A stretch of 63,345 bases of DNA, filler included, from Choristocarpus tenellus KU-1152 (Eukaryota; Protista; Phaeophyceae): the NCBI GenBank assembly GCA_964200185.2. It is 9 parts of 9 records of this genome, joined end to end, with 100 filler letters (N's around TTAATTAATTAA, not from the genome) between each part and the next. Parts side by side here need not be neighbours in the genome. Positions count along the whole stretch, not along the records: positions 16,220 to 20,642 come from CAXNAD020014616.1; 8 more parts are not named here. One strand, given 5' to 3'. Every line of letters starts with the position of its first letter. Position 1 is the stretch's first letter. Made by a program: the position numbers and the translations under genes. Positions 158 to 47,200 of the stretch are shown one piece after another. Under the pieces are notes generated by a model that had not been told where the DNA came from, ran no database searches, and saw only the letters and a list, made by a program, of their open reading frames with translations.

Positions 158-3100
158 CTTGACACTTCCAACAGTTGATCCGAGCCCTTGTGTGTCTTCT
201 GCAAGCCGGTGCATCCCCTCTTCACAGTGTGTCAAGCAATGGGTCGGAGTATTGCCAGGGCCAGGGTGCCCAAAGGTTGCCTGCATGAGAGGTGTGAGGT
301 GGCAAGGGGAGCAAGAAGATATCAAGAGTGTGCTGTACTAGAAAGGACAAGATGTGGCATAAAGTATCTATACCTGGGTCCCATATGCACCCCACATTGT
401 ATACATAGCACTGCTGGCACTCTCTTAAATATCTCACTGTTGCATTTGTAGAAGGGAATGATACACATAAATGCCAGAAAAAACAAAAAACGAAATGCCA
501 AAAAGAGATACATCACTGTACAATGTACTGCAAAATAAAACCCTTTCATAACTCCACTTTGACAGGTCCCAGCAGAATAGTAAAGGTATTGTTGTAAGCA
601 TCTTAGACAGCATCCAATCTATAGTGCTGTCTTAGATGCTGTGAACCATGCATGAGTGGTATGTAGTAAGGCACCAGACTACATTAGTGTTTTGACATTA
701 GTATGTTTTCACCTTTTTCAACTTTCTCAACTTCCAAGGCATTCCCAAGAAGGAACACTAAGCACTGTTATTGCAGCCCAAGAAACTTCAAAACACGACC
801 CCCTAATCAAGCGAATAAGTTAGCAAAAGAATAGCTACATGCAACTGTAGAGATACTGAAGAAATATACAAAAAACAGCAGTCTTGTCTTTTCTGTCATC
901 CTCCTGTGATCTGCATGTACATTAAACACAATCATATCTCCACTACTCTCACACCATTCTTCTCCTCAGCCTCAAAAATTCCGAAACACTCGAGAAGAGA
1001 CAGGCCCTTAATATATTCCATTTAATCTATTCCATATGGACCTTACCTTTGCAACACAGGTAGTCACATCACATTTCTTCTCAGTTGATTCAGTTGGCAC
1101 TGCAACAACAGGAGCAGCACTGGGAGAACCTGGTGCCTCTGCCTCCGGCTCAGTCACGCCTGCCTCCCCCGCATTGGTCGTTGGCACACTCTCCATTGGT
1201 GATGTTGTAGTCACTGCACCATCAAAAGTAGCTTCACCTGCAGCCCCCACTCCTGCCTCTGGTACAGCAGCATCATCCATGGGTGCCTCTGCAGAGTCTG
1301 AGGCAGCTGCAACTGCAGCCTTGGTGGCAATGGCAGCAGCAGCTACCACTGTGGCTGCCACAGATTCTGGGGCAGGGGGACGGCGGCGTTTTTTAGCAGG
1401 GCCTGACTCTGTCACTGTATTCCCTGCACGATCCAGGTCAATACCTGGAAGGCTTGCGGTGGCAGGTGCTAATCCTGGCCCAACCCCTGTTGAGACCCCT
1501 GGGCCACTTCCAATCCCCCCCCCAGGGGTCATAGGGGTCAAGCTGACAGGATTACCTAGGAATGATGCTTCTGTAGGGGTGGTTATGGTGGTGAGGGGCA
1601 GGGCAGTGGTGGTCTCGGGGACTGCCATGGTGGCTGAGGGCAACTCACTCGGGGCAGCAATTGACCCTGGAGCAGTGGCAGTTACAGAAGAGGCTACAAG
1701 TGATTCCTCAGGAATGGTCATGCCAGAGGAGCTAAAAGCTAGGGCAAAGTCTGCAGCAGTAACAGGCCCTGAAGAGAGGTCTGTCCCTGGCATGGGCACA
1801 GGGAGAGGGAGGACTGGGAGGCTTGTCGCAGGAGCCAGGGGGGGAGCACTGCACATAGAAGGAAAGGAGGAGAGGGAGCATAGTGGTGCATTAGACATTG
1901 TATATGTGCAAAATGATGTTCATGTGGTATGCTGGCAACACCCATTAACAGTCGAAGGCAAAATCCAGGGACTTGGTGGTCACGGTTTGCATATTTAGGA
2001 TGAGGCAAGTATTAGGTGTAAACAACAGTACATGCTATATACAAAGCAAAAAATAATAATAAAAGTTGTACAAGTCAGAGAGTGCACTCTAAACACATCT
2101 CAACCTCTACTTAATAAAAAAACCCCAACAGATCACAATGCACATCTCCATCCACATACATAAAATCCTTGCTTGAATTCAGGTTCACAAAGACATCTGA
2201 TTTGTGAACCTATCACCCTCGACACACACCACACAACTACCAAACAGTCCTATATATGTTGAAGAAAGTCACCTCTGCACTGCTGCTTGAGCAGCAAGCT
2301 TTACAGCCGCTGCTGCAATTGCTGCTGCAGCATCCTCTGATGCCTTACAAGAGCATCACAAGTTGAGGGGCAGAAAGAGCACATGGCAAGATACAGAAAT
2401 GATGTGTGGGTACAGTTGCATCCAATGGACAGTATTGCAAGAGAAAAGGGGGGTGACTAGCAGGAGGGGAAATGCCTTATCAAGGGACGCACATGCCAAA
2501 AATAAGCCAGAACCATAAAAAATGGAACTAATCTTAGATTACTTCACTTCAGGCATCACAATGAAAAACACCATGCATCACCTAACAATTCCCTATAGCA
2601 AACTATCAGAGCATAGAATGAATGATGTTCATGGTACTTCACTCCACCTTGGGAAGAAAAAAATAGCTGTAGCGGTGCAAGTACACAGTCACTGAACACA
2701 ATCAACACTCACATTGAACACATCAATCTTTTTCAGAGGCAGGGGTGTCACTTTTGCAGAACCAGCATCCCTCTCCTGGGCAAGCCGGCTAGCTTCTCTG
2801 GCTGTTGTAGCAGCCGCCCTGCGAGCCTCAGGACTCCAGTGCAGCACATTGGGACTTTGTGGGGGAATTACCTTCATAGACCAAAATATAGGCAGCAGTA
2901 GCAGCAGCAAGTGGCAGAGGGTGAGTGGGAGATGGGAATTGGGTTAAAACATAAGTGCACGTTGATTGTTGAACAAGGGGAATGTTGATAATGATCTTTT
3001 GTTTGTGAAATCACACTCGAGATACCATCTTGATGTGGCACTAAGGAGACAGGTCAGAAAAAAAATGGAGTTGTACAGACTAGAACAAAATTACATCACA

Positions 3101-10917: not shown

Positions 10918-13159
10918 TGATGCAGGTGGCAATCCTTGAGCTCTTTTCCCTTATCTAAGGCCGTAGCAGTAGTACTATAGCACTACAATTGTCTTGATTG
11001 CAAGCTCAGCTGAGCTAAGATTTCTGATGTATGCTCCCCTTAACTATTAGAGAGGCATAGTGGGATGCCAGTGCAAACAGTCTTTTCAGATCAATGCCAC
11101 TTTGCTCTTGTTTGTTTGTTCATGAGAGAGATACAACAATGGATAAGTGAATCCTCTGACTTTACAGATCACAGCAGTGCATGTCAATTGCCACCATTCA
11201 CAGCAAAGACTGGATTAGTCTCACTGGCCCGATGGTTGTATTGTATGTGCAATGACCAAATGTACAAGGTGTGGTCAAGTGAGTGGTACCATCGAGTATC
11301 TGCAATGACCTTGGCTCTTGTTCCCATATGATAACCGCTGTAAACACGTGCAGTAATTACATTATTTGGGTACTGAATTTAATGACATAGTGCTTTCAAA
11401 GTATCACCTTCTGAAATTTAGACATGTCACCTATTGGAAGAACACATGAAGTGAACACCTGGTTGTTAGGATATGTAGAATCTGTGGAGATTCAGTGATA
11501 GATAGGAGTTATCATGCTACTATTGTTGCAGGGTGTTTTTATTTCAGGCTGGCACTACTGCACTTTTAAATTGGACATGGTGGATCACATCATTTGGTTT
11601 GAAAGTTTTTAATTGGATTGCTTGAATGGAATGTAGATGTGGTAAGGATCGCTGGTACATGGGAGAACACAGGCAGCTGGCATTCAGGGGAGATGTAGTT
11701 TGGACAAAATGCTGTCCACAGAGATAGTTATGTTGAGGTGGGGGTGCAGAATAGTACCACCTTGAAGCATGGGAATGCATGGAATGTGCTCAAAGAGAGA
11801 CAAAGTTGAGACGAGTACGCATTTGAAAAGAGGAGAATTAGTTCCATTGCCTCGCTTTTGTTTATGTGCTGGAGGAATAACTTGTTTGGTAGCACATATT
11901 TTTCAACGCCGTGCTTGAGGATTAAGAGTGATGGTACAAGCAGTCACATGCAGTGTGTACCATAGGGATGAAATGATGTATGCATGTATTTACGGTTGAA
12001 GTGAACAACTCCTCAATCCCCTACCTGTCAAGTTAGTGTTTGGAAATGCTGTGGAGCTCTTACTTTCCTGAGTACATTTTCCTGGTGTACATCTGGTTAT
12101 GTACGCACCTGGCAACATAAAGACAGATTTCAATTGTACTGGGGAAGTCCAGTTTTACTACTCTCTTGTACAGTGTAGGGGTGTAAACCTGGAAAGTTGT
12201 GGACCCTTAGGGATATGAAGGAAGCACATAGTATTGGATGATGATCACGTATGTATGAGACAGAGGTTATGGCTTGATTCTCTCAGCCTGCTTGGTCGAA
12301 TGTAGTTGTTACCAATGGTTTCGTATCCGCCCTTTTAACATGAAGGACTTGCAACCATGGTGCTCAAGGAAAGGTTACACCTCAATATAAGACAGTGCTG
12401 CCCTACAGCCTGAATCTGTGATAGAGAATAGTGTTAAAATACTTTTATATGCAGCAACTCCCGCAACGACTTAACTTGTTGTCAATCCTATTTTTGTTAT
12501 TTTATTTTACTTGCAATGTTTTTGTTTCCTCTTTGCATGTTCGGCATTGTCTTGGACAACATAGCAATGTGTTCCTGAACATGCTGATAATGTTATAGTT
12601 CAAACTTCCTTTGTTCAGTTTAAACTTTTATGTGAACAGTTTATTGTGGGGTACCCAAAAAAAATGAAGTTCTAGTACCCTAGTGTCTCAGAGAAGTCCG
12701 ACTAACCTGACCTATTCTATGCTACCCAGTTCAAAGCTGAAAGAATTGCCTTCCTGATGTGACATTATATTTTCCCACCCTGCAAATTGTTCGAGTTGGT
12801 GCTGAACAGAGGAAATACTAATAATATATTATTTACACCATTGAGAACATGCTTTTAGTCAGTAGGTGCAACAATTTGCCTTGGACGGTATCTGACTCTG
12901 AAAAACTGTAGCAACGGTGGCAACAAAATATATGAGCACGTTTTAGAACGCCATAATGATGTAAACACTGCCAACAAAAGTTAACCAAACAATAGAGGGA
13001 TGAAGTCAGTAAGTATTTGTATTATATATATTGTTACACCCTCTGACATTTGCAGAGATGTCGAGGGAAAAGTCAATTCAAGATCATAACCCCTGTTAAA
13101 TAAAAGTTGTCATCAATGTGAAAGATATTCTTCTATAATCTAGTTACTATTTGACTACC

Positions 13160-13760
13160 GGCTATGCTACACCACTTCCTTGCTATTCCTCCAACTTAAC
13201 TTAGCCCCTACACCACAGGGCGAGAAGGTAGGGAAGCATCCAACAACCTGACAGGCCCCTCCTTGCCCATCTCCCTGCTGCCTCCAGCTTAATATGCATG
13301 ACATCTCTTGAGAGAGCTACTTGTGTTGTGACAAACACTATCTGTCGTAAACGGGATTTGACGGCTCCTTTCCTGTTGTAGCCTGCCGTCCCTCTCCCCC
13401 CCCTAACGCATGCATAGCCAACTTATCCAGAAACCTTCCTGGTTCCACACTGCGGTGCCCAAAACTTTCCAATGCAAAAGTGTTGAGCTTGTAACTTCAA
13501 GGGTTGAAAGAACTCTAGAAGTGGGTGCGCTTTCACACATCCACTGCAGCATCAACTACACCATTGCTGGTGAGTGAGTGGGGTAGATAGTAGGCTGCTT
13601 TTACTTTTTGAAATGTAATATCTAGGAGGAAGCCTTCATTCTGGTAGGGAGATGGTCTGGTGTCCTCAAGTGCCCCAGCATCGAAGACTACATCCATGCG
13701 GAAATTCCTGTCCAAGTATATTATCCCCTCGGATATTTTGAGACAATGTTGCCATGTATG
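13160..13760 (-). mobile_element. Decayed 3' end of a CRE-like (RLE-type) non-LTR retrotransposon
   Basis: RMDVVFDAGALEDTRPSPYQNEGFLLDITF...LPHSLTSNGVV aligns by eye with the endonuclease region at 31560-31990(+). The 3'UTR matches 28690-28810. Confidence 0.7.
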
Positions 13761-14324: not shown

Positions 14325-14583
14325 GAGTGAACGTATCTTAGAGGGTACGATTTTTTCCCTATTTGTCCATTTGGGGCTTGGCTTCCCATGGGTTTTTTTA
14401 TGACATTTTCCTACCCCAAAATGTTTCGGGGTAGGTAAAATGTATACGTTATGAAATGGTGTATCTGGAACAAGGACATTGACTCTTCCTAACGAACGCA
14501 ATAGCCAAAATTACAACAAAATCGCAGCATTGAATTTTGGCCCCCAAATGGACATGGCCGTACCCTCTAAGATACTTTGGCTC
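14325..14583. mobile_element. MITE family A, copy 1 (259 bp)
   Basis: TIRs GAGTGAACGTATCTTAGAGGGTACG / CGTACCCTCTAAGATACTTTGGCTC, flanked by ATAT on both sides. Homologous to the copies at 30284, 46942 and 63285. Confidence 0.9.
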
Positions 14584-16219: not shown

Positions 16220-16295
16220 ATGGTCTTTTCGAGCAACAGGCGGTCTTGGGCAGTGAGAAGGTGTAGGAGTGACTAGATTCGAAGACGAGCGCATG

Positions 16296-17056
16296 AACTT
16301 TGTTTGAGCCTCGGGCGATCAGTGGGACAACCCCGAGATCCATGATCCTGAAAATCCGTCCGTTACACTTTTCGGAAGTTGTAAATCAGATTCTATCCGT
16401 GATTACTATTTTAAAAAATCCAATTATATCAGTGATTCGTATTTTTTAAGTTGCCAATCGCATACTTAATTGATATTGTACATTTCCAATGTTCCGAAAC
16501 CAACTTTGTTCGAGCCTCAGGCGATCGGTGGGACCACCCTGAGATCCATGATCCAAAAAATCCGTGCGTTACACCTTTTGGAAGTTGTAAATCAGATTAT
16601 ATCCGTGATTTCTATTTTTTTTAAATCCAATTATATCAGTGATTTCTATTTTTTAAGATACCAATCACATATTTAATTGATCTTGTACATTTCCAATGTT
16701 CCAAAACCAACTTTGTTTGAGCTCTGGGCTATCCGTGGGATCACCCTGAGATCCATGATCCTCAAAATCCGTGTATTACGTTTTTATGGATTTGTAAATC
16801 TGATTATATCCGTACTTACAAATTGTTTAAAATACAAAGCACATACTTCATTGATCTTGTACGTTTCCAACGTTCCGAAACGAACTTTGTTTGAGCACTG
16901 GGCGATCCGTGGGACCACCCTGGGATCCATGATCCAGAAAATTTGTGTATTGCGTTTTTATGAATTTGTGAATCTGATTATATCCGTACTTACAAATTGT
17001 TTAAAATGCAAAGCACATACTTCATTGGTCTTGTATGTTTCCAATGTTCAGTAAGC
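16296..17056. repeat. Tandem array of ~206/207/174-bp units (4 clear copies, more degenerate copies to ~17500)
   Basis: Unit start AACTTTGTTYGAGC at 16296, 16502, 16709 and 16883. Shared GATCCATGATCC and TTTCCAATGTTCC motifs. Confidence 0.92.
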
Positions 17057-17480
17057 AAAACTTCAAAAAACAACTTGCACCCTCTACATATTTGAAGTAC
17101 AAAATCTTACCAAATTGGACATATGGATTGTCATAAATTGTAGAGGCACGTGCATTAGGATTTTTATAAATAGTAAATCCAGTAATAACCGTTCTTAGAG
17201 TTTTTTTAAATACCAAGAACGCATTTTATGGGTCTCTCACACGTTTCCAATTTTCAGAAACTAAAAGGACACTTCCAACTGGTACCCACAATTTATTTAG
17301 ATACTATATCCGCTTCTTGGTGTCTTTAGTATTTAAATAAACACTAGAGACCACAAAAAAGCGGATCTATGGTATTAAAGATCCGCCCGGATCACTTTTA
17401 CCGTTGAACACCCAAAACACATGCGTTAGGGTTTTTACAAAATTAGAATGATATTCTAATCTTTACATCAAGAAATACAG

Positions 17481-19784
17481 ATACAAACCACATCCTTCAA
17501 TGATGTAATACATTTGAAACGTACGAAACGAAAAGGTCACAATAATACAGGTACTCTCTGTCTCATTTCAATATGAAATCGTATGCTGTTTGATATTCGT
17601 ATTTTTTATAACACAATTCTCATAAAAGTGTTGAAATCTGAGTTTTGAGGATTGACATACCAGAAGCCTGCCGTACTTACAAAGCAGTTTTCTCCATCTG
17701 TGGTAATCCAGCGAGACTGTATAGGTAATGGGGACCAGCTCAACGCCGAAACTGCGCTTGCCATCCAAGGACGTGTACTGGACGGAAACCATAGAATAAC
17801 GGTGCTGAAGAGAGAATTTGATCCCGAATGCGCTTTCACTATGCGAATCTACATGGAGTTCAACCAAGCAGAAGAGAGACTAGGTGCCAACGGTGGGTGA
17901 TGGAGTGTTTTCGTTATTCCATAATCGCCTGACCATTCTGATCAACTAAGCAACAAAGTAGTTGAGTGTTCTCGTTGATTCATGTTCGCCTTATGACTAT
18001 TACCATCAAGAAAGCAACAAAGCAAGTTGATATTCTTCACGTTATTCCATGATCGCCTGACCATTCTGATCAACTAAGCACAGAAGTATGTTGAGTATTT
18101 TCGTTGTTCCATGATCGCCTGATGACTATTCTGATCTACGAAGTTGTTGCCGAGTTTCCTTTTCTTGGTTCATCGTCTGTCAGCCCATTGTGGATCTTTT
18201 CGTTGCTCATCTTTTTTAGCCCTCGTGGTCTTCCTGTCCACAGCAACATGTTGCTCAGTGCCGCAGGCCGCGTGTGTCCTGCGACCACTCCCCACCTAAC
18301 CCTTGTCCCGTTCGCCCACTGCGCCGCCATGCTTATAGCATTCAACGACGCGACCGAGAGTGTGGTGGAGCGCACGTTATACGATAAGATATATTTTCAG
18401 CACGAGCTCCAAGAAGCTATCAAGCGATAGACGAAGAAAAAAGAAGTGTCACTAACAGAGATCCGCAGAATGTACAAAAAGGTGAGAGAGTTGTTGACAT
18501 TGGTGGGTTGGTTCTCTCTACCCCTCCTCTAGTTGGGTTACAGCTGTTGTGAAATCTCTCTGTGTCCTTCTATTCAACCTAAGTTGAGATAGTTATCCCG
18601 CGTTTAGATACCCTGTCTACCAACTTATTGATTTTCCGGTGACCATGTAGTATGTATGTGTGGTTAACCACAGAAGTGCAATAAAAAGCGTCCTTGATTG
18701 TTTTATCGACGGTGTTACCTGAACCCCCCCCCCCCACACACACACACCACACACACACATACATACCGCGTTGGCGTGATAATAACGATGCCTCATCCTC
18801 GCTGGCTGGGAGCATAATATTTTCCGTTTTCTGCCCATTGCGAAGGTGGGCGTTACTCCCCCGGCGAAAACAACTCTACAAAACTGGTAGCAAGGCGTAA
18901 AGTCCCTTCGACCAGAGTCCTTCGAGGTACTGAAGGAAGTGTGTGAGACCTCATCACCATAGGTTGACCGCAACGCAGTCACACTAAACTATCTGACTAG
19001 CGAGGAGTTTGCCGGCTTCACTTCTCTCAAGAAGGGGCTATGCATCCATCTGCTTTCTAGGCAAGTCAAAACGCCACTGTGTTTTATCGTGTAGACAGCA
19101 GTAAGCGCAATTTGTGCCGGTCGCAGCACATTGCACAGGAGCGTGAAATAAGTGTCTCCTGCGATGAAGAATGCAGTTGGCCATTGTTGTGTCGAACGAA
19201 AAAGCCTTCATAGTAACCTGATAATTCTACAAACAGTGTGTGATTCCTGTGTATGTGCGCTCTTGTCTTTTAGGAAGTACGACAATCGACCCATGAATAT
19301 TTGCTGCAGTGGCGACCTTTTCCTCTTCATAACCTGCGCATCGTTCTCGTTGACGTCCTTCATGGCAATTCTCCTTTAGCAGGTACAAGTCGTTCTACGG
19401 GAAGGCTCCTACGGCGAGGGACCACAAGGAGATCGAATCGGACGCGCACATGTCTGAGATGGTTGTCTCGCGCACCAGGCAGATTGTGCCCATGGAGAAG
19501 TGGACACCAGAGCTCCAAAGGTTGGTAAATGTTGCAGTTGCAGCGGGTATCCTTTTTTGCGCCCATACGTCGCCATGCGCCCCTCAGTAGTAAAATATGC
19601 TGTTAGCGTATTTTTCTGCACTGCACTTATTGATTATTGTTGCGAAACCGCTCTGAATTCCGGATGTTATGCGAATGATGCACGGGCTGCCAGGGAAATG
19701 GACAGACTCGCATACGAGAAGTGCAGTACGCACGACCTCTGGGTCAAGCCCCACTACGAGGAGAGGAAGAGGGAGGTGGCCTAA
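17481..19784 (+). pseudogene. Spliced ParB/Srx-like N-terminal domain plus putative HTH protein, with in-frame stops
   Basis: Exons 17481-17550, 17650-17892, 18339-18481, 18846-19060 (GC donor), 19383-19520 and 19694-19784 are phase-consistent. They give ...VIHLKRTKRKG...GLTYQKPAVL...GRVLDGNHRITVLK...EFNQAEERLGANAFNDATESVVERTLYDKI...VSLTEIRRMYKKVGVTPPAKTTLQNW*QGVKSLRPESFEVL. Internal TAGs at 18428, 18888 and 18960. Confidence 0.7.
17909..18140. repeat. Intronic minisatellite, ~62-67 bp x4
   Basis: CGTTRTTCCATRATCGCCTGA...TTCTGATC core at ~17910, 18038 and 18100, with a more diverged copy at ~17971. Confidence 0.85.
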
Positions 19785-22700
19785 CTTCTGCAGAAGGTTT
19801 CATCTGGCGACCAACAGGCGGGGCCCGTCCGCCAACTGAGGGCAAACATCTCCACGGTAGTCGGAATGAAACCTCTGCAGCGGGTCAGAGCCGTGAATGT
19901 ACCTCCTGTGTTCGTAATTACAGCTGAAATGACTTGTACCGAAAAAAAAAGTTGATGCTTGGTAGGATTGGTGGTGGGTCTTCGTCATTATCATGAGCGA
20001 CAGAGTTGCCTTCCCTACAACAAACGTTGCTGTTTTGTCAGTTCTAGTCTTTCGTTGCTAATATCGGGAATAGCCAATCGTTTCCTTCAACTGTAGACAA
20101 CGATCTTGGTCAATCTCCACCTCGTTTCTGCCTCCAACACACGTCACTGAAAAAACCTACATACAGACTGGCGTCCTCGACATGGACTTGTTTCAAACTA
20201 TTTCGCCCCGCAAACCGCCTCCATTAAACACGTTTGCCACGTCAACCGTATTGTTTGCTCTGTTCGCTCCTCCATGCTATCGTACTTCCATTACTCTATC
20301 ACATTTTTGACGTCACCATCGTCCCCTCCTCTCCTCAACAATGTCCTCCGCCGTGTCCACCACTAGATTATCGAGAAGGACTCGACTCTATGCGCTTACC
20401 TCACCACCTGGGATGGGAAATACCAGGATGTACTCAACCAGGTCAACCTCCACCAGGTTCACAGCGGGCGAGGCTGTGATGGCGGCGGCGCAGAAGTTGA
20501 GAGCAACAACAGATCGGCATCAGATGGTCGTGAGAAAGAAGACGAGGGAGGGCGCGAACACCAAGGAGGGGATGGAGAAGAGGGAGGGGACGAACACAAA
20601 GGAGGGGACGAAGACGAGGGAGGGAACGGACTGCCAGACAGGNNNNNNNNNNNNNNNNNNNNNNNNNNNNNNNNNNNNNNNNNNNNTTAATTAATTAANN
20701 NNNNNNNNNNNNNNNNNNNNNNNNNNNNNNNNNNNNNNNNNNCCCCCTGGCTGTGGGCAGGGTAAGGATGTGGACCGCCACCTCTTTGGGCTGTCCACCT
20801 TGCTACGTGAAGGTGAGAGAAGATAACTGAGCTTTATTAACCAGAAAATTCCTAAATTCTTAGGGGTTACAAGCAAAATGGGTTGCAGGATACCTACAAG
20901 GGGGGAAACCTTGCCCCTTGTCCCTTGCCTAATGCAGTAGATGCTCTTTAGTCCTCAATAATACTATCAATATTCAACATTGAGTGCTTACTGGATGAAG
21001 CCAACATTGGATAAAATAACACTCACACATGTTGCATACCACAATACAGGGGAATCAGCAGAGCTCTTCAAAGACCCCTCATTCTCCATCAGCAAGTATT
21101 GGAGGCTCTCCACAAGTCACTTAACCCACGAGATGTTTGATGGATGGGGGTGGGGGGAGGTAGTCCCAGATGGTGAGATGTGTACAGTGTTTTTTTGGGA
21201 CAGAAGTAAGTTCAGAGTGGGTAAAAGGTATTGTTAACCTTCGCACCCCCCACCCCCTTTTTTCTGGTACAGATAATACACTTGCCCTGTAAGAGGAGCA
21301 CTGCAAAGTTTTTCTTATGTGCTTTACTTTTCCTGCTTAAATATCTAATGCATTTTTTTTTATGCATGCAACAAAAAATAGGTGTAGGTGCAGCATACAT
21401 GATCAAGAGACGCTCAATCCACTTCAATGTGGCCTCTATGCAAAGACCGGAGGGGTGGCCAAAGGCCCTTTGCCATTGTGTACATGAGGCATTACTGGAG
21501 ATGCAGGCACTATGTGAGCATGAAGTGGTTGCCACCACGCCTTCCAAGCTCTAGATTTTTTATACAGGCGATGAGGTCTGGTTGGGGAGGGACCAAGGCA
21601 CAGTAACAAAAGCAGTGGCAATACCTGCTACAAGAACAAGATATTAGCTGTCCACGCATAGGTATTTGACTTACTCATGTCAAGTTCATTATGGAATGTA
21701 CAGCAGTCAACATTTTGATTTTTTCTAGTTTGATGAGTTACTGTGGAATATTGGGAAGGAGGTAATTGCTCCTGAGAAAGTGACAGTGGTAAGATCTTCC
21801 AATCTAATGTCAACACGCTTGAGTCAAAAGGACAATAGGGGAATAGAAATATGATGGGTGTTTGAACCAAGAGAGCAATGAATGTGGAAGGAAGCGACTC
21901 GGAAATGGAAAAAGAAACATTTTAAGTGCTCTTACAATCTATCTTCAGATTTGTTGGTTGCATTAATCCGTTCTTGCATTAGGCAGTAACCATTGCCATC
22001 CAGAGTATTGCAAGAGCCCAATTCAATTTATACATCAAAGAAAGCGATCTGTCCTTGTACTCCCATGCATCTCTCTCCATAGGCACAATTGACTCACCTG
22101 GTCTGGGAGTGGGACAACGAGTGTATGTAAATCTTCATTCCCCAGTTTTTACAGAACACTCTTAAATAGAACAGTCTTTGTTTTCAACTGGAGCTCTAGG
22201 TTGGTACAAGTGACAATAAATATTGTGCTAACACCTCTATTCGTTCTTAATCGAGTCAAACACATACACACACACACACAAGCTTGACCGTGGGTGGGTT
22301 TCCGGTTACTTCAACTAGCAAACCCACCCACGATATATAGGGTGCTCCTGCACAATAAGGGAAGCCAGAAGCCAAACAGCCAACACTCCCATAAGAAGGC
22401 AAGAAAACTAACTCTCTAAGGCATCTCGAGAAAGATATTGTAACTTATTGTACACGTGAGGATGGGTGATGCCTCCTTGTGTGTATGATCAGTGATGATT
22501 GTACCATCCATACATGCAGTACTCCAGCAATCCAAGGGAAAATAAAACAATGTACATGTGTAGGAACCCACTGCAGAGAAAGACAGGTGCTAAGCCAACC
22601 CTGGAAGAAAAAATATATCAACTTGTCCAAGTAAGACATTGAAGGTTCACCCTGTACTATCAAGAAAAATGCCCCCTCCCCCCCCCCTCTGAAATAAACC

Positions 22701-27334: not shown

Positions 27335-28479
27335 TTTTTCTTTGATCAACTAACACTGGTGATCTTAGATAATACACCACTCTCAATCCACCTCAGTCAA
27401 CGCATTACTCAACGAATCCTATGTTTAGTGATTTGAGCATAAGAGTAATCACGTGTAGGGTTAGTTGAGCGTGAACCTCTCTTTTGCTCTCACCACTATT
27501 CACTGCACAGGAACTCTTGAGGTTTGTGTTACAAGTTGTTACAAAAATCCGAAAACGAAGACGATGTGAACGTAATAAAAGTGAGAAACTGAGTTTCTTC
27601 TTCCTACAAATGTAAACCACCACCACAATTACGGACTTAATCCGATACATCGTGGTTAACCGATAACAGAAAGTTTACAATTAGTATGAGTTGCTACCTC
27701 CTTCATCAATACTAACATCCCTTTGAGAGTATTACAACAGTAACCACAAAGATTTTCTGGTCTGACTGATCACGAAATCATTGCAGATTATCACACAAAG
27801 ATGAACCCGATAAAGTATCGTAAGTAGTAAACAACAAAAGTAGTAGGATGAAGGTTTCGATTTTCTGTTCCTATCAAAACATTAAAGAAAATATTGATGG
27901 TAAAAAAGACTCTTTGAAAAAAAGGAAAAACTGAATTTCTAGAATACCTCGTATGATATGATGTTTTAGTGTTCTATGAGTATCTCAATGAAGTGTCAAT
28001 CAGAGGAAAAATGTGGATGAAAGAACCCAAGATCAAGACAGTAAGGAAAACGACTATAACTCTTCTATTTCGAAGTTATTGGTTCGATTCTTGGGTCTTA
28101 TAATTCTATTTTGACAAATATTGTTACGTGTTAATTTGATTATTTATAAAGTAAAATCTAAAATATATAAAAAATCGAAATTGGAGGTGGTAGGAACAGA
28201 ATAATATTGCTTACCATTAGAAATATTGATAGGTGGTTGGAAGTTAAGAGGATACACAACTCATCACCCATTCATTACCCCAAAACACACAGCCCAATAC
28301 CTTACAAAACCATAGTCGTCATAATACACAATTTATATTGAACAATAAGTGAGCGTCAGTGGTGAGGCAATATGCAACATAGTTGATAGGCATAAATGGG
28401 ACGAAATGTGTGGTTGTTGTCTCTCACTACTACTAGTGAGACCAGAGGATTGAAAGAATACAATATAACGATATAACCT

Positions 28480-28810
28480 CAACACCTTCGCAGTGGAAAG
28501 ATTTGTGCGCCTCGGTAAGCAAGCGGAAAGTTTTCTGGATGAGGGAATGGGGGAGAGGGCCGGGAGTCTACAGGAGGAAAGGGGCAGTCAAATCCCGCCT
28601 ACGACGAGTAGTCTCTGTTACAGTGCAGGTGGCCTTGTCTAGATGCGTCATACGTTTATGCTGGAGATACCAGGGAGATGGGTAAGGAGGGGCTTGTTAG
28701 ATTCTTGGGATGCTTCCTTAGCTCCTCACCTTGGGTTGCAGGACTAAGCTAGGTTGGAGGCACAGGAAGGCAGTGGTACAGTATATCTGGCATAAAAATA
28801 GTAAATAGAT
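28480..28810 (+). mobile_element. CRE-like retrotransposon 3'-end fragment
   Basis: CTCAACACCTT...RKGAVKSRLRRVVSVTVQVALSRCV matches 31767-31980. The 3'UTR matches the reverse complement of 13160-13260. Confidence 0.7.
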
Positions 28811-30059
28811 CGATGTTTTTCACATTTATGATAACTGTTACTTTTTTTGGTATTTTTCTGGCATATTAATAGTTTTCATTGGTTTTCCCCCTCACACATC
28901 TACAAAATGTCAGAGGGCATAATAATAAAATATAGGTAACTGTAACTCTTCTTGGTGTACTAGGAGGCCTTTCCTGCAAACAAATACAGACTCTGTTGTT
29001 ATTATTGGGTTTGTTGTATACTTCACCTTCAATGTTTCTTCTTGTGTTCCCTCCACGACAACATCTGTAATATGTCAGTGGGGAAAACAATAGTGTATAT
29101 TCCCTCTGCCCTATATTATGTCGAAAGTTTTCACGGTAGACTAAAAATGGTCAAGATGGTATCGGGTTTTCGTTAAATTCTACGAGAGTTCTTCCAAAAA
29201 GAAAAACCCAGCATGAAGTTACCCTAGAATCTCAGCGAAATACACTTAGTGTACCTATTCTACGCCACCTGCTGCAAGCTGCAAGAATGCCTTGAACCTT
29301 CCCGATGGGCTTATTTTTTCTCAATCTTCCAAACTTGTTCGAACTGATGATGTTAAACGAAGTATATAACATACGTTTTGCGTAAGAAGAGGCCGTGTTT
29401 TATTCTTTTTTAGTGATGACAGAGATATTATGAGTAGATGCAAATGTCGATGGGTCCTTGACCATCTTTGTAGGGCAAGGGTAGGAGCATAGGAGCAGTG
29501 TCGACATGTGTTCGTAGGGAACAATCGCACAGGCGACTTTGTTGTGTGGTTATTGATGTTATAAATTTAGGAAATATTGTTATAGGCGCCCCTCAAAGCT
29601 TACCTAATGGCGTTTATGAAACCGCCATCAAGACATGTCGCCTGTAACAGTATGTTGGAAACAACTATACTAAAACCAAAGTCCTCGTAGTTTTCATATT
29701 ATTTCTCCCCTCACTATCTCCAGAATCTGAGGTGGCAAAATATACTATATACTGTACTATGTAGTAGATGCAAACAAGATAAACTTTTTATAGTCTGTTT
29801 GGGGTAGGTAGTTTCCCTTATGGGACAAGTGGTTCTATCAAGATGCATCATGCTTTTCAAACTAGAGGACGAGGGGCAGATTAACAAGAAGTGTCTGACA
29901 TGTATTCTGGAGATGCCTCTGTGGCTCCTCGTTCACCTTCATAGGGCTAAGCTAAGTTAGAACCATAGTAGTGTACACATTGCTTAATAGTTAACAATCT
30001 TTAGGAAACATTGTTGTATTGTTGGTTAAACTGCACTACTATATCTGCTTCCGAGCAGC

Positions 30060-32017
30060 TGAAGACATATCTACTCGAGGTTTCTTCGCTGTACCTTCCC
30101 AGGACCACCAGCTCACGCTCTCGGAACTGGAATTCCTAGCCACAGGGGGAATCAACCTAGTTTCGGACCCAAATGGTCTTGCCACTCTAGGGGCTACAGT
30201 AGAGGCGGATGGATTAACCCGAGCCCACATGGATGGGGTATTTAGAGGTCTGGGTCACGGATGCTGGCCACGCGCCTGAGTGAGAGTGAAAGTATCTTAG
30301 AGGGTACGAGTTTTGCCCTGTTTGTCCATTTAGAGCTTGGCTGGCTTTTTTATGGCATTTTCCTACTCCAAAATATTTTGGAGTAGGTAAAATTTATGCG
30401 TTATGAAAAAGTGTGTCCGGAACAAGGATATTGACACTTACTAACAAAAACGATAGCCAAAATTACATCAAAATTACATCAAAATTGCAACATTATATTT
30501 TGGCCCCCAAATGGACGTGGCCCTACGCTCTAATGTACTTTCGCTCTGAGACGGAGGATAAATAAGTTGCTTAGTTCCTCAACTCCTGTTCCCTCTCTTC
30601 CAGCTTAGGTTGTTTGACAAGGGTCACTCCCCCCCACCTGGCACGTTCCATCATGGAACAAGCCGACAACACTTCACTGTGGATGCTAGAGAGGATAATG
30701 GAGGTAGCAGACTCAGCTGGAGCCACTGACTTCTTCGATGGGGTGTGTGGAAATGGATCTCTTCGCCTGGAAATTCATCAACAAGTGCAGGCACAGATGC
30801 CCACAAGTTCGGGAGGGTTGGTCCCATCCTCCACGAAACATCACCAGCATGTAGCCTTTGTAGGATCACTGGTGGCCACTCTCCCCACCCTTCTAGGAAG
30901 GCAATAAGGGCCCCATGGAGAGGCTTTCTCACAAGCCATCCGTAAGAGTCCCACAATTTGAGCCCTGGGATCACCCATCCACACCCTCCTCTCGACAGGA
31001 GTCCCTCCAGAAGATTTGGAATGAGTTATTGATCAAGGTTAGATACCCTGGGGGGGAACAACAACCCCTACCCCCTGTCCCAGAGGTCCACACTGTAGCA
31101 GCCCACAACCCCAGGATTCCAAGGAAGGCACAACATGAGACCAACCGCCTCCTGGAAAGGATCCGGTTTGACTTTTTCCGGGTGCAATTGACCAACCTAC
31201 CAGACGATGCAGAACAAGATAGGGAGATCTCTTCACTAGCTCTGGCCGACCACTGGAATCAGTGTGAACAAGGGGCCAATGCATGGGCCTCCACACTACC
31301 CGTGAAATCAGCACGCAAGATTCCTCCCATAGAGTTTAGACTCACCCTCAGCAGATTATACGGAGGCTCGAACAGGTGCCCAGTGGCTTGGTGCTGCAGG
31401 AAGTATAGTGTCGGAACTTGACACGCTCCTAGCTGCCCTAAGGCAGGGGGACAGGTACGACAGCACGTGTAGATGGTTAAGTGTCTAGGTCAACTCTGTA
31501 AAGGAATGGGCATCCCTTGCGCTATGGAGGACGGTAGCCCATACATGGTGAACAGGAGTTCCGCAAGGGTGTAGTCTTCCATGCTGGACCACGCTGGATA
31601 AGCTCCCTGCCAGGACAAAGGCCTCCTCCTGGATGTTACGTTTGCAGAAGTGCATGCAGCCTCCCACTTGCCACTCTCATCCACCAGCAATGGTGTAGCC
31701 CCTGCTGCCGCCAAATTGAGAAAACGCACCCACTACGAGGGTTCTTTTGATATTCGTAGTTTTAACCTCAACACCTTGGCAGGGGCAAGTTTGGGGTGCC
31801 TCGAAAAGCAAGCAGAAAGTTCTCGACGTGAGTTGGCCATACACGCAGTAGGGGGGAGAGGGGCAGGAGGTTCTAGCAGGAAAGGGCCTGTCAAATCCGG
31901 TTATGACAGATAGTGCCTATCACCACAGAAGTGGTTCTCTCAGGACGTACCATGTGTTTCAAGCTGGAGACACCAGGGAGATGGACAAGAAGAACTCTGT
32001 CGGATTCTTGGGATGGT
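30060..32017 (+). mobile_element. 5'-truncated, decayed CRE-clade non-LTR retrotransposon (RT thumb/tether plus zinc knuckle/RLE endonuclease), interrupted by MITE-A
   Basis: GLATLGATV...; LTRVTPP; QAQMP.SSGGL..S...AFVGS; ANAWASTLP...IPPIEFRLTLSR; CPKAGGQVRQH; LLDVTFAEVHA...AAAKLRKRTHY...NTLA...G. These are motifs typical of CRE/R2-group elements. Multiple stops and frameshifts. Confidence 0.75.
30284..30546. mobile_element. MITE family A, copy 2, nested in the CRE-like element
   Basis: GAGTGAAAGTATCTTAGAGGGTACG...TAATGTACTTTCGCTC, flanked by TGA/TGA. Removing the element plus one TGA rejoins the host frame (RLSETEDK). Confidence 0.9.
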
Positions 32018-32264
32018 TGAAAGAATCTGGGGGGGGGGGTGCCAGCTGTCTATTCGGGGCNNNNNNNNNNNNNNNNNNNNNNNNNNNNNNNNNNNNNNNN
32101 NNNNTTAATTAATTAANNNNNNNNNNNNNNNNNNNNNNNNNNNNNNNNNNNNNNNNNNNNCCATTCTCCTGAATGCCTTCTCACCCACCAGTCTTTTTGT
32201 GCCCCCCCCCCCCATGCACTCTGATGGAACTTTTGATTTGTATTTTGCCTTGCTTGGCCGACAG

Positions 32265-39100: not shown

Positions 39101-39978
39101 GAGAGGACTAAAGTGATTACCTACTTTCCTATCCCCTATTCTTGTGTTATCCACAGAGAGTATATCTTCAGCCTCTGATGACCCCCACCCACCCCATCTC
39201 AACTCCCATGAAATCACAGTTTTTGCACTTTTTTTTTGAATAACCAAGACCCCCTACATTGCAGATTTGTTCTCTTTCCCACAGCATAGAATATCCTCCG
39301 TGATTGCTTACCTGTGTTCTCTACCTCCTACCCCCTGCTGCTACTCTTACCTCCCCTGGTTTCAACTTATATCCAGATGTCACTGAACAAGCTTCTAAGT
39401 GGCCAGAGATCACACGATATTCTTGTGAACACTGGTATCCTTCTTGAGCAGACGCCCGTTGAACACATGTTGGAGAGGGCTGTGGTGTCTGACCATGTGA
39501 AGCATCAACTGCAGAAGCGCTCGTCACTTGAAGAGCTCCAGGAGCGTGGAGTGATTCAGGTTGTCAGGTTGAGAAGAGACATGAGGGGCTTCAGAACTCA
39601 CAAACGTATTGCCTGTTCACCCGCCTATAATACACATATACACACACACATACACATATATATATGTATAATTGCAAAAAAAAAATCTGTCACTGTTAAA
39701 AAATATCCCATGAAAGAGTCTCATTTCAATGGCAATGATAAAGATAATATGCAGCTGAGTTACTGGGTTAGGTGACGACATCCCTCTTGAGGTGATACAG
39801 TCGTTTCCCAGTGGTAGTACAGTGCCTGTCTCTGTTTCTGAGATCATTTATGAGGGCTCCCTTCCCCTCCCCCCAGGGGTGCAACCCTAAAGTTAAGGAG
39901 GTGGAGCGGGCGTTCTTGACTTCCAAACTGAAGCACAACCTTGAGCACAGGAGCAATTTGGAAGAGTTGCGAGCGCAG
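36190..39978 (+). CDS. RPEL-like repeat protein with an N-terminal degenerate EF-hand-like region, 3'-truncated
   Basis: Exons 36190-36317, 36731-36857, 37022-37157, 37771-37913, 38562-38744, 39377-39559 and 39877-39978 are phase-consistent. Repeats LSGQRSHDILVNTGIL, LQKRSSLEELQERGVI and LEHRSNLEELRAQ resemble RPEL (LxxRPxxxELxxRxIL). ELRAVFNDITG and LTFEGFISFL are EF-hand-like. Confidence 0.75.
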
Positions 39979-42501: not shown

Positions 42502-43177
42502 ATGTCCAAAAGGGCTCGCAAGGCGGAAGAGAAAGCGATCGTAACAAAGGCAGCTGTGGAGACCTTTCAATACCACCAAATCCTTTACGTAGAAGAGGTC
42601 ACGAAGCAGGTGAAGGTAGCCATTGACGACGACGCCAGGGAAGAAGAGTAGGTGAGATTGAGACTATTTGCACACTAATGCTTTGGTGTCTCCCACTTCT
42701 TGCAAGATGCCGTACATTCATGTTTGTTCCTGGACTTGGGGTTGAGCGTCTAAAGTTGAGTAAGGCTTTCTCCCAGCCTGCATTCATTCGAGAAATCAAC
42801 ACAACGTTCGATCAACTCAAGCCTGCCCTCCCTCGCCCTTGCGCCTTGATGAAAATAAATCATCATCCGCCCAGGAAACACGGACAACCCCCATTTCCGG
42901 CGCTCAACAAGGAAATGTGATAGTTAAGGTTCTAACATTGCGAATCCTGTACGTGTGTATGAATGACGGGAAAGACGATGAAACGGCACTCGAGATGGCA
43001 GCAGGATATGCGATGGTCAGCCCAGAAACTGTGAGTAAATGGGAGAGAGACTTCCTAACTAAGGACCACATCAAGGTGTCAAAGCAAGGGCGCTATGAGA
43101 GGCGTTTCATCCTGGGCCTCGACGAGGACATCCTTGCCGAGGTCAAAGGATGGGTTTTGAACACACAGGAAGAAAGG
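42502..43177 (+). pseudogene. Intron-containing DNA transposase relic (N-terminal HTH region, IS630/Tc1/mariner-group-like)
   Basis: ALEMAAGYAMVSPETVSKWERDFL...SKQGRYERRFILGLDEDILAEVKGWV resembles transposase HTH/linker regions. The upstream exon MSKRARKAEEKA...EEE* ends in TAG|gtgaga, and there is a frameshift near 42880. No catalytic domain is visible. Confidence 0.5.
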
Positions 43178-44401
43178 GTGAGGAGAGTTTTTTCCCACCT
43201 AAACCCTATACTTTAATCAAGTAATTGTGCATCTGTTGCCACTCTTGGTGACCTACCATCCAGGGCTCGAACCCCAATATGAGCGCTCTTTCTTCAAAAA
43301 AAGAAAAAAGTGGCGAAAATATACATGAAACCGGTACCCCGGAGGGCCTTGTGACAGGCATCACGAATATGCTATTATTATTTTAATCCGATGTCTATAT
43401 CAAACGTAATGACGGGACAACCCCAGAGGGCGAAGCTACTGGTACCTCTATAGTGAATTTCATTTCGCACACTCTAGTCATATCACATGAACTCAATCCA
43501 ATGCCACAATCTCACATACACAAAACAGAGTACACCTTACTATCGTCCTATTTTGCACATTCCCCCATGAGAGTGCAGGCAATGAAGGGTTGCTGGAACT
43601 CTCAAAAGCGGAAAAAATATATATATATATAATATATATATACATCCATAGTCATAACGAAATTCATCTACAACCTTGTCAACACTGCCTGTCTGAGTGG
43701 TCCCGAATGCTTTCGGTTTTTTCATATATCTTTATTTGTATCTTATTCTGCACATCCACATCGTGACGGTTTTACCTCGGATGGTGTTCAAAATGATATT
43801 GCTAGTGTTGTGAATCGAGAGCATTCGGAGAGAAATACGAAAAACAATTGTAGGTACTATTTGTAGCTAGTTAAATCGGCTCGAAACTTTCCAAGTACTC
43901 AAAATTTGAACCCAATTGGCAGCAATCACCTCCCTCTTCCTCTCCTCTTTCACTTACCTTCCCCATAGTAGACTCAACCCTCGCTTGATGTATGTACTTG
44001 TGAAGTAGTCTCAGGCGCACAAGTATGAGAGCAAGTGGTATCATTGATCACAACAACTGATGACCACTGTACCTCGATAGCAGAACACATTCACAGCATG
44101 CATGGCAACACTAGCAGATAGAAGTGCCAACACAATGCTACACCATGATAACACTCTGGACAGTGTCCAGCAGTGTCAACTCTCCATAGAAAGCTATATC
44201 ACAACATGATGTTATGACATCGCAACACTTTGGACAGTGTGACTAAGCTAGTTCTGTTATGGCACGAGTAAATTATGGTGTGCCATCAGAATGCGCTGGA
44301 GAGTACAGTTCTCTTTTTTTCATTTTGTGATATGGCATAATGGATATCCACTTGGGGAGCAGTATGGACCTCCGTTCGCATTTTTTGCGCATACTTGAAA
44401 C

Positions 44402-44582
44402 GGTTCAAAGCATCTGGGGGGAGGGAGGCGGCTGTCCATTTGGGGTCAAATTTTTCATGTCGCGATTTTTGGGTTTTATTTGGTTTCATAGGTCCGAATG
44501 ATAATGTAAATGTACGTTTCCTGATTTTGGTCCAAATTGACACCCTGGTGTAGACTCCACTCCCCCTCAGATACTCTGGGTC
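44402..44582. mobile_element. MITE family B copy
   Basis: TIRs GGTTCAAAGCATCTGGGGG / CCCTCAGATACTCTGGGTC, flanked by AAC/AAC. The body is homologous to 59855-59999 and to the reverse complement of 60745-60895. Confidence 0.85.
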
Positions 44583-45928: not shown

Positions 45929-46941
45929 TGATAGTAGTAACATTTGTAAGTAATACAAAAATAGTAAAATATTAGAAAAAAAGGTTAACTACAGAGTAAA
46001 TCTGAGTCTTTTGAGGTTGAGAATTAGAAGAGGGGAATGGCAAGGATAGGAAAAAGAATAGGAGGGTAGAGAAATGTTGTAGACGTCTTGAATGGGAGGC
46101 AGATCGTGTGATTGAGATATTAAAGGGAAATGAGGAGCAGGTGGGGAATGGAGGCTAGAAGGACTAGGGAAGAAAAAAGGTAAATGTCAAGAGCAGAATG
46201 TGAGGACAAAAAATGGCAAGATCAAGGTAACATCCGAGCAATCTTTCTCACCCACCCATCCTCTTGATTGCTAACAATTGAGTGAGATGTTGGGAGGGGG
46301 GGCGGAGGTCGTGTTCAGGCGGTGTAGATGCTATCTACTTCAAAGGCACGGTATTGAAATGGATAGTTAGGGGGTGTTCTTGGATTAGTGTGGAGTGGTG
46401 TAAAGCGGTGTGGTAGAGGAAGGTGGAGTGGGTTTGCAGGAATTGATCGCATTGGTTGGTGACTGGAAACCAGTGACAAAGATCGGTCGCACTGATTGGT
46501 CGTTGGATATACAGAATTGGCCACATAGTTTATGGGATAACAAGGATAGTATGTGTGGAGGAAAGTAAGAAGTGGTGGCATATTGCTTGAGGAGGAGAAG
46601 AGTGAATGAAAAGCTAAGACTAGGCTAATTCATCAATGCAGAATTTGTGACCAACGCCAAAAATAGTGAAGTTACTTTGTTCCTTTAACATATAATTTAT
46701 TATTTATTCTGTGGGTATTCGTTTGAAACTTGAGACCAAGATCAAGGTACCAATGTCGAGCCGGGTCCACCACAGGATTCGGCGCTCATCAGGCGGTGAC
46801 TCTGTTTCCTCTGCCTCTCCCTCCACCTCCACAATCTCCTCCTCATCCTCCCATTCCTCCTCCACCATGGCCCCTAACTCCAAGATCTCTCCCCCTACTC
46901 CCACACTGCCTGCACCCTTCAAATCCCACTAAGTGCATGGA

Positions 46942-47200
46942 GAGTGAAAGTATCTTAGAGGGTACGAGTTTTGTCTTGTTTGTCCGTTTGGGGCTTGGCT
47001 TCCCAGGGGCTTTTTATGACATTTCATCTACTCCGAAATTTTTTCAGAGTAGGTGAAATGTATGTATTATGAAAGGTGTGTATGGGACAAGGATATTGAC
47101 ACTTCCTTACGAACACGATAGCCAAAATTACATCAAAATCGCAAGGTTAGATTTTGGCCCCAAAACGGACGAGGCTCTACCCTCTAAGATACTTTGACTT
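46942..47200. mobile_element. MITE family A, copy 3 (259 bp), within a probable retroelement 3' remnant
   Basis: GAGTGAAAGTATCTTAGAGGGTACG...TACCCTCTAAGATACTTTGACTT, flanked by TGGA/TGGG. Confidence 0.9.

What the first reader, a model, noticed from the sequence alone, without database searches (positions are those of the whole stretch)
17481..19784. Spliceosomal-intron-containing ParB-like + HTH gene in a eukaryotic nuclear contig
Seen: six exons splice in phase to a ~300-aa frame. It has a ParB-like layout: a helix followed by G...P-A-V, then GRVLDGNHR (17781-17795 for DGNHR), an 'EERLGANAFND' helix, and an HTH-like segment (VSLTEIRRMYKKVGVTPPAKTTLQNW). An acidic Gly/Glu/Asp-rich exon candidate follows at ~20465-20640. 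Known: the (I/V)DGxHR motif marks the ParB/Sulfiredoxin fold (CTP-binding clamps in bacterial partition systems). As I recall, eukaryotic ParB-like domains are sporadic and some are fused to N6-adenine DNA methyltransferases or carried on mobile elements. Inference: this is cargo of an uncharacterised algal mobile element or endogenised virus/plasmid-derived gene that has gained introns. The acidic linker may lead to a C-terminal enzymatic domain beyond the contig end. The ORF track shows only fragments, so automated annotation would probably miss it.
Basis: partly seen in the sequence, partly recalled or inferred. Interest (0 to 1): 0.8.

Follow-up and report, generated by a model that had tools for sequence, protein, structure and literature searches.

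The report
Dead seaweed ParB pseudo-methylase transposon gene
This is a broken copy of a spliced, highly repeated brown-seaweed gene for a bacterial-style ParB DNA-clamp protein, likely carried by a jumping gene, whose longer relatives end in a DNA-methylase-shaped domain that lacks its active-site motifs, so the protein likely binds its own element rather than methylating it; a ParB-plus-methylase gene on a seaweed transposon is already published.

Summary
Real gene, dead copy, known design. Six exons at 17683-20642 match brown-algal proteins (80% to a Choristocarpus protein). All five introns are skipped in contigs of one public run, and their positions are conserved in relatives. A confident model of a relative matches ParB/Noc/KorB structures; Pfam finds nothing. 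The whole 4.4-kb contig is a high-copy repeat with an upstream 207-bp tandem array, but shows no terminus or transposase. Longer relatives continue into a beta-class N4/N6-methyltransferase-like domain that lacks the DPPY motif in 4 of 4 subfamilies and the SAM-binding motifs in 3 of 3 readable ones. Best reading: a transposon accessory ParB clamp with a pseudo-methylase. ParB-methylase accessory genes are published for Ectocarpus Sola1-1 (PMC12477816), predicted there to be active. This scan noted the design on plant DNA, twice as a pseudo-methylase. Interest 0.4.

The parts
16296..17058 (+). Tandem array of about four 207/174-bp units upstream of the gene; candidate binding array for the protein (inferred, untested)
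   Evidence: TRF periods 207 and 174, 86-89% matches; families D1, D2, D4; covered at high depth in X1-X3, so part of the same repeat family. Four unit cores do not fold better than shuffles (z +0.39 to -1.37).
17361..17386 (.). Perfect 8-bp inverted repeat with a 10-base spacer upstream of the gene
   Evidence: Palindrome scan; folding z -2.9, 1 of 200 shuffles as good, but the site was picked after the scan.
17481..17550 (+).
   Evidence: No protein homology; indels at 17527, 17543, 17546 and a divergent donor in other copies.
17665..17682 (+). Copy-specific deletion junction with 18 bases of filler; removes the start and about the first 76 codons (Box I of the ParB domain)
   Evidence: Depth trough and loose ends behind 17664 and before 17683; a 13-base word at 17671 occurs elsewhere in the window only at 16810 and 16984, in the upstream array.
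17683..17892 (+). Remnant of the ParB exon; Box II motif DGNHR at 17781-17795; phase-1 donor
   Evidence: 79% to P0001 77-147, E 3e-31; X3 joint 17891>18338.
17908..18143 (+). Degenerate ~64-bp repeats inside intron 1 (17893-18338)
   Evidence: TRF period 64, 3.4 copies; shares two words with the upstream unit, reached by 106 and 203 of 2000 shuffles, so weak.
18339..18481 (+). Exon: end of ParB domain and first HTH helix; in-frame TAG at 18428
   Evidence: 88% to P0001 147-195; Gln at the stop in P0001 and P0004.
18846..19060 (+). Exon: HTH recognition helix and following helices; TAG at 18888 and 18960; GC donor at 19061
   Evidence: 77% to P0001 194-266; 18888 reads C in 15,606 of 15,814 summed depth in X1; X3 joints 18478>18843 and 19055>19381.
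19383..19520 (+). Exon: helical region
   Evidence: 73% to P0001 264-315; X3 joint 19518>19692.
19694..19892 (+).
   Evidence: 79% to P0001 312-381; Gln at the stop in P0023, 88% identical; X3 joint 19892>20367.
20367..20642 (+). Exon: long helix, then acidic Gly/Glu/Asp linker with 18-bp repeats; cut by the contig end
   Evidence: Matches P0002 at E 3e-11; TRF period 18/36; N linker from 20643.

Best explanation
The locus is a pseudogenised copy of a spliced, high-copy brown-algal gene for a ParB-fold + HTH protein, likely an accessory gene of a large DNA transposon, whose intact form likely continues through an acidic linker into a methyltransferase-shaped but probably inactive domain. Shown: exon structure, splicing in the family, the deletion and four stops, high repetition, the ParB+HTH fold of relatives, and loss of methyltransferase motifs in the longer relatives. 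Inferred mechanism: intact copies make a protein whose HTH would recognise a motif in the element's own tandem arrays, whose ParB domain would bind a nucleotide triphosphate through the conserved Box I Arg and DGxHR Arg and close as a clamp, and whose dead methylase-like domain (plus a finger and a possible SET-like domain in some relatives) would act as a DNA or chromatin binding surface rather than an enzyme. The likely outcome is self-recognition that shields the element from silencing or helps its transposase. This copy makes no functional protein.
For: Fold: model of P0037 from a 99-row alignment has block pLDDT 76-98 over residues 21-420; Foldseek's 12 PDB matches at E<=0.001 include ParB, Noc and KorB, and every listed row to rank 26 is of that family; VIA-align Z 9.7, 217 residues, rmsd 5.0 to a pNOB8 ParB; Atlas model of P0001 25-270 gives TM 0.58-0.67 to ten clusters, seven named or annotated as ParB or partition proteins. 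Motifs: R56 92%, D110 96%, G111 99%, H113 96%, R114 93%; DGxHR in 82 of 96 clusters covering the site. Repetition: 5,833 X1 contigs laid on 4.4 kb, summed depth 7,120-93,180 per bin while 7 of 8 listed X1 contigs have depth 30-59; several divergent copies per species, including a 24-member cluster whose 15 listed members are Pylaiella. Methylase-like domain: P0037 545-843 scores 0.92 to PF01555 clusters; hhalign to 12 reference MTases E 4.7e-5, score 39.4 against a maximum of 23.4 in 100 block shuffles, collinear in beta-class order. Motif IV reads CLNR, NVGA, SIGA, NLGA in four subfamilies; motif I reads TFTAESD, LFGAEHN, CLPIETS; none of 187 fetched proteins holds [DNS]PP[YFW] or the FxGxG pattern. 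The window groups with P0003, which carries the domain's first part, at 99/99. Precedent: PMC12477816 and the Bostrychia preprint.
Against: No transposase, terminal inverted repeat or target-site duplication is visible: the contig is 4.4 kb and the repeat runs past both ends, and the other eight contigs share nothing with it at E<=1e-5. The methylase-like domain is not in the window; it is inferred from relatives, only one of which (P0003, partial) is in the window's clade, and the gene models are automatic and fragmentary. Its model is poor (pLDDT mostly under 50), and an HMM of the 12 reference MTases gave no significant hit (best E 0.19). No clear binding motif emerged: shared words p about 0.05-0.1, k-mer enrichment at or under the family-wise bar, no hairpin in the units. 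Pfam shows no ParB or MTase hit. The run that shows splicing has no RNA label on record, and all four runs come from one study. Nucleotide binding cannot be predicted from sequence (PMC12704722).
Confidence: 0.65

Rival explanations
1. Same transposon accessory gene, but the intact protein is an active N4C/N6A methyltransferase that marks its own element, as proposed for Sola1-1_Ec32.
For: PMC12477816 predicts an N4mC or N6mA product for a 1104-aa ParB-methyltransferase. The domain keeps the beta-class layout. The window's own C-terminus is unseen, and GATC is denser in this contig (6.3 per kb against 1.2-3.5).
Against: Motif IV is lost in 4 of 4 subfamilies, and motif I and the acidic motif-II residue in 3 of 3 readable ones, while 12 of 12 reference MTases keep D/S-P/L-P-Y/F and the acidic residue. 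These lineages are deeply split, so the loss looks old. The GATC excess comes largely from tandem duplication and does not pass the family-wise bar.
Confidence: 0.15
2. The gene is cargo of another kind of element: an endogenous giant virus, a Helitron, a tyrosine-recombinase element, or a non-autonomous Pack-type element.
For: No terminus or transposase is seen. ParB-MTase fusions are enriched in phages (PMC12704722), and viral ParB models match the fold. Red-algal accessory genes move between element types.
Against: No relative in IMG/VR contigs, JGI metagenomes, prokaryote genomes or phage records. Five conserved spliceosomal introns and very high repetition fit a long-resident transposon better than a provirus.
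Confidence: 0.13
3. It is a domesticated host gene family that expanded by segmental duplication.
For: Spliced forms are present at high depth in X3, and the protein is conserved across at least seven brown-algal genera.
Against: Introns and upstream arrays are as repeated as exons; many diverged and truncated copies per genome; several deep subfamilies coexist in one species.
Confidence: 0.05
4. The frame is intact because TAA and TAG are read as glutamine in this organism.
For: All four stops are TAG or TAA and align with Gln in the closest relatives covering them (three) or Arg/Gln (one).
Against: Other copies read C at 18888 in about 99% of depth; the 5' deletion removes the start anyway; brown algae use the standard code (own knowledge).
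Confidence: 0.01

Closest known systems
Accessory gene of Ectocarpus Sola1-1_Ec32 (Dinatale et al. 2025, PMC12477816; section 5, passages and parts 2-3 of supplementary table MOESM3 read; FASTA supplements and figure not readable)
   Same: Brown alga; ParB-like domain followed by an N4/N6-methyltransferase-type domain; repeated element; proposed self-binding.
   Different: The paper predicts an active methylase and calls the gene Ectocarpus-specific. Here the motifs are lost in every subfamily read and the family spans at least seven genera. Whether the 1104-aa protein belongs to this family, and whether this element is a Sola1, could not be tested.
Plavaka accessory genes PAG2 and PAG3 of Bostrychia (bioRxiv 10.1101/2025.02.11.637652; section 8 and passages read)
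   Same: ParB-like protein on a giant DNA transposon with adjacent tandem arrays; N6-methylase and SET domains as cargo.
   Different: There ParB is fused to a 2OG oxygenase, and methylase + SET form a separate gene with Pfam hits; the arrays are of inverted repeats. Here ParB and the methylase-like domain are one protein without Pfam hits, and the units are not clearly palindromic.
Bacterial ParB/Noc/KorB clamps and phage ParB-N6_N4_MTase fusions (PMC12704722, passages read)
   Same: Fold and order ParB then HTH; Box II GxxR conserved.
   Different: 10-19% identity in structural alignments; spliceosomal introns; no parA partner; nucleotide preference unknown.
Chlorophyte-type Dam family 2 with ParB-type HTH, and inactive DIRS1 MTase domains (Iyer et al., PMC4738411; passages read)
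   Same: Eukaryotic ParB-related part fused to an amino-methyltransferase; precedent for a dead methylase domain carried by a transposon.
   Different: Those are group-2 (EcoKI/TaqI-like) enzymes; this domain aligns with the PF01555 beta class and follows a whole ParB domain.

Membership tests
ParB/Srx (ParB-CTPase fold) superfamily | ParB/Srx fold | tested here: met
   On relatives P0037 and P0001: Foldseek E 2e-4 to ParB, VIA Z 9.7, Atlas TM 0.58-0.67. The window's own remnant was not folded.
ParB/Srx (ParB-CTPase fold) superfamily | Box II GxxR motif | tested here: met
   DGNHR at 17781-17795; DGxHR in 82 of 96 clusters.
ParB/Srx (ParB-CTPase fold) superfamily | Box I (Arg, helix, G-x-x-x-x-P loop) present in this copy | tested here: not met
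   Conserved in the family (R56 92%, G74 88%, P81 81%) but deleted in the window up to residue 76. Naming it Box I rests on my reading of the alignment.
ParB/Srx (ParB-CTPase fold) superfamily | Pfam ParB_N profile match | tested here: not met
   No hit for the exon or any relative; PHROG ParB-like families only weakly, E 0.006 and 0.09 in 2 of 11 proteins.
Canonical ParB | HTH domain after the ParB domain | tested here: met
   Alignments span both domains: model 29-304 to 5k5d, and 133-280 to the ParB DNA-binding domain 6s6h at a weak Z 4.7; about 200 residues in the Atlas.
Canonical ParB | CTP binding, parS recognition, clamp dimer | not testable with these tools
   Needs biochemistry.
Beta-class N4C/N6A DNA methyltransferases (PF01555) | Homology and motif order IV...X-I-II | tested here: met
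   In relatives only: Atlas 0.92; hhalign E 4.7e-5, above all 100 shuffles. Moderate strength; Pfam and the HMM search were negative.
Beta-class N4C/N6A DNA methyltransferases (PF01555) | Catalytic motif IV [DNS]PP[YFW] | tested here: not met
   CLNR, NVGA, SIGA, NLGA in four subfamilies; 0 of 187 proteins hold the motif.
Beta-class N4C/N6A DNA methyltransferases (PF01555) | SAM-binding motif I FxGxG and acidic motif II residue | tested here: not met
   Lost in P0037, P0166/P0152 and P0181; P0003 does not reach this part.
Sola1 or other DDE DNA transposon | High copy number with coding and non-coding parts repeated together | tested here: met
   the tool warns that summed depth is not a copy number.
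Sola1 or other DDE DNA transposon | Terminal inverted repeats, target-site duplication, transposase | tested here: inconclusive
   The contig ends inside the repeat; no genome is held; nothing related in the other contigs.
Sola1-1_Ec32 accessory protein family | Sequence homology to the 1104-aa protein | not testable with these tools
   The FASTA supplements cannot be read.

The most novel reading that the evidence does not exclude
Brown-algal transposons carry an old, family-wide ParB nucleotide-gated clamp fused to a dead bacterial methylase (and possibly a dead SET domain) that loads on the element's own tandem arrays and spreads along chromatin as a non-enzymatic anti-silencing or transposase-recruiting factor: a working ParB/parS-type clamp in a eukaryotic nucleus. 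If the Sola1-1_Ec32 protein is a member, the published prediction of self-methylation is wrong for it.
Probability: 0.3. Interest if true: 0.75.

Novelty: new variant of a known kind. Interest (0 to 1): 0.4.

Why it matters
How brown algae control transposons is largely unknown, and Ectocarpus has negligible 5mC (PMC12477816). ParB-methylase accessory genes were proposed to mark their own element. The relatives of this gene keep the ParB nucleotide-binding residues across deeply split subfamilies yet have lost the methylase active site, which points to binding or clamping as the selected function and gives a direct test. The locus itself is a dead copy and the general design is published, so its value is as an entry to a broad, unannotated family (146 clusters at 50% identity, no Pfam hit).

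Tried and rejected
No genome is held. Pfam gave no ParB or MTase hit. A profile search of PDB sequences with the ParB alignment returned phycocyanin beta chains at E 7e-4, which I take as chance; other PDB sequence searches gave nothing useful. The single-sequence fold of P0037 failed (pLDDT 36). The homodimer prediction gave no answer (score 0.01, alignment not used) and is evidence neither way. No relatives were found in viral contigs, metagenome contigs, prokaryote genomes or phage records; two searches with broad alignments could not run. No RNA holder was listed. The search for a parS-like word was inconclusive. A SET-like domain after the methylase-like domain in P0168/P0179 was suggested by eye only; Pfam and PDB searches were blank. 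TAR = Gln was rejected. The methylase-like domain is absent from the rest of the window. Searches for print on an inactive ParB-methylase in transposons found none; bioRxiv supplements and the FASTA files of PMC12477816 were not seen and may bear on this.

Full report
Setting. The window is nine contigs joined by N linkers. The finding lies on a 4,423-base contig, 16220-20642, which shares no sequence with the other eight at E<=1e-5. No whole genome is held, so context comes from protein databases and public runs.

Finding the gene. The DGNHR exon (17649-17888) found one protein among 58 candidates: P0001 of the brown alga Choristocarpus tenellus, 80% identical. P0001 found Undaria P0002 and Ectocarpus P0003 and 146 clusters at 50% identity. 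Of 30 proteins looked up, every cluster member with a species name was a brown alga (Choristocarpus, Sphacelaria, Undaria, Cladosiphon, Pylaiella, Scytosiphon, Ectocarpus); the rest were unnamed Logan or ENA records. tblastn of P0001-P0003 places six exons on the + strand. With splice sites they are 17683-17892, 18339-18481, 18846-19060, 19383-19520, 19694-19892 and 20367 to the contig end; four introns are GT-AG and one GC-AG. The spliced frame is 80% identical to P0001 over 302 residues.

Splicing. Four coded runs of one study hold parts of the stretch, none labelled RNA. Contigs of X3 skip each of the five introns; X1, X2 and X4 show none of these joints in the rows listed (70 further joints not shown). 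X3 is therefore probably an RNA run, which is my inference. Separately, 67 of 146 homologue clusters have their best match ending within three residues of one of these intron positions, against about 12% expected, and 25 start there.

This copy is dead. The frame has four stops: TAG at 18428, 18888 and 18960, TAA at 19782. Close relatives have Gln there, or Arg/Gln at 18888, and other copies read C at 18888 in about 99% of depth. Homology begins at P0001 residue 77. At 17672-17688 summed depth in X1 drops to 565 from tens of thousands; other copies leave the window behind 17664 and enter before 17683, reading the missing end of the Box I helix. The 18 bases between include a 13-base word found elsewhere in the window only in the upstream array, as expected of filler DNA at a deletion.

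Fold. Pfam finds no ParB domain and PHROGs only weak hits in 2 of 11 proteins. Structure does find it. A model of the 843-aa Cladosiphon relative P0037 from 99 aligned rows is confident over residues 21-420 and poor beyond. Its top Foldseek matches are ParB, Noc and KorB at E 2e-4 to 1e-3, then sulfiredoxins. VIA-align gives Z 9.7 over 217 residues to a pNOB8 ParB, and its first nine rows are ParB, Srx, SerK, SbnI, PadC, KorB, Atu1540 and Spo0J. The Atlas model of P0001 matches ParB clusters at TM 0.58-0.67 over about 200 residues. The family keeps R56, G74, P81 and DGxHR. PMC12704722 (passages read) shows that Box II Arg is needed for nucleotide binding and that nucleotide preference cannot be predicted.

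What follows the acidic linker. The window ends in the linker. P0037, P0152/P0166/P0050, P0003 and the Pylaiella fragments P0175/P0181 continue into one homologous domain. The Atlas scores it 0.92 against PF01555 clusters, sharing 160 of 256 features, which is under the tool's 170 guide. Against an alignment of E. coli YhdJ and 11 phage methyltransferases, hhalign gives E 4.7e-5 and score 39.4; 100 block shuffles reach at most 23.4 and the reversed alignment 14.9. An HMM of the same references found nothing significant, so support is moderate. Where all 12 references have D/S-P/L-P-Y/F, the algal proteins have CLNR, NVGA, SIGA or NLGA; motif I and the acidic motif-II residue are also gone in the three subfamilies that reach them. 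None of 187 fetched proteins, most of which are fragments that do not reach this domain, holds either motif. In a 14-row tree the window sits beside Choristocarpus sequences, in a 99/99 clade with Undaria and P0003; the other methylase-like carriers lie on separate long branches. Linking the Pylaiella ParB and methylase-like fragments rests on their shared cluster and equal contig lengths. Loss of activity therefore looks family-wide, but it is inferred from automatic gene models.

Element. 5,833 contigs of X1 and 4,345 of X2 lie on the 4.4 kb, and introns and upstream DNA are covered like exons; summed depth per bin in X1 is 7,120-93,180, while 7 of 8 listed X1 contigs have depth 30-59. The tool warns that this is no copy number; I read it as hundreds of diverged copies. 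Upstream lies a four-unit 207/174-bp array and intron 1 holds ~64-bp repeats. They share two words, reached by 106 and 203 of 2000 shuffles; k-mer enrichment is at or below the family-wise bar; the units form no notable hairpin. A binding site is therefore plausible but not shown. No terminus or transposase is in reach. No relative turned up in viral, metagenomic, prokaryotic or phage collections.

Literature. Dinatale et al. (PMC12477816; section 5, passages and two parts of one supplementary table read) describe a 1104-aa ParB-like + N4/N6-methyltransferase accessory gene on the 21.5-kb Sola1-1_Ec32 and propose self-binding and self-marking. The Bostrychia preprint (section 8 and passages) describes a ParB-oxygenase gene beside tandem inverted repeats on Plavaka elements. 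Iyer et al. (PMC4738411, passages) list ParB-HTH-methylase fusions and inactive DIRS1 methylase domains. Four searches found no report of a dead methylase in ParB accessory genes; the FASTA supplements that would settle membership were unreadable. Earlier notes of this scan report the design on plant transposons, 28 findings by words, two of them as pseudo-methylases; these are unchecked, and my note of the lost motifs precedes them. No look-alike of this stretch was on record.

Verdict. The locus is a decayed member of a large brown-algal ParB-HTH gene family, most likely transposon cargo, whose methylase-like domain is probably a pseudo-enzyme. It works like the published accessory genes in layout but fails membership of active N4/N6 methyltransferases. 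New variant of a known kind; interest 0.4.

Noticed in passing
P0168 residues ~165-420 and P0179 1-270 (relatives, not in the window): A further conserved domain follows the methylase-like domain in Ectocarpus and Pylaiella members (25% identical to each other). By eye it resembles a degenerate SET domain; Pfam and PDB searches were blank.
   Followed up: partly
P0037 ~424-470, P0003, P0084, P0181 (relatives): A Cys/His finger sits between the helical region and the acidic linker in several relatives; the window's exon goes straight from the helix into the linker.
   Followed up: no
window 17665-17683: Filler at the deletion junction copies a 13-base word from the upstream array 700-850 bases away, a neat trace of templated repair.
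   Followed up: yes
window 19061: GC donor in intron 3; whether other copies have GT was not shown.
   Followed up: no
window 42764-43213: Stop-free frame that by eye resembles part of a transposase; no Pfam hit; on a different contig.
   Followed up: partly
window 39290-39772: Frame with two or three RPEL-like repeats by eye, probably an exon of a host gene; no Pfam hit.
   Followed up: partly
window 62186-62480: About 300 bases that match their own reverse complement at 88%, a possible miniature inverted-repeat element.
   Followed up: no
window 14325-14583, 30282-30546, 46940-47199, 63275-63345: A ~260-base interspersed repeat shared by four contigs at about 80% identity; other short repeats are shared among 13098-13714, 28472-28843 and 31549-32018, and among 44405-44582, 59856-59982 and 60749-60893.
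   Followed up: no
window 1008-1998: Overlapping 303- and 328-codon open frames on opposite strands, low-complexity Ala/Pro/Thr-rich; no Pfam hit.
   Followed up: partly
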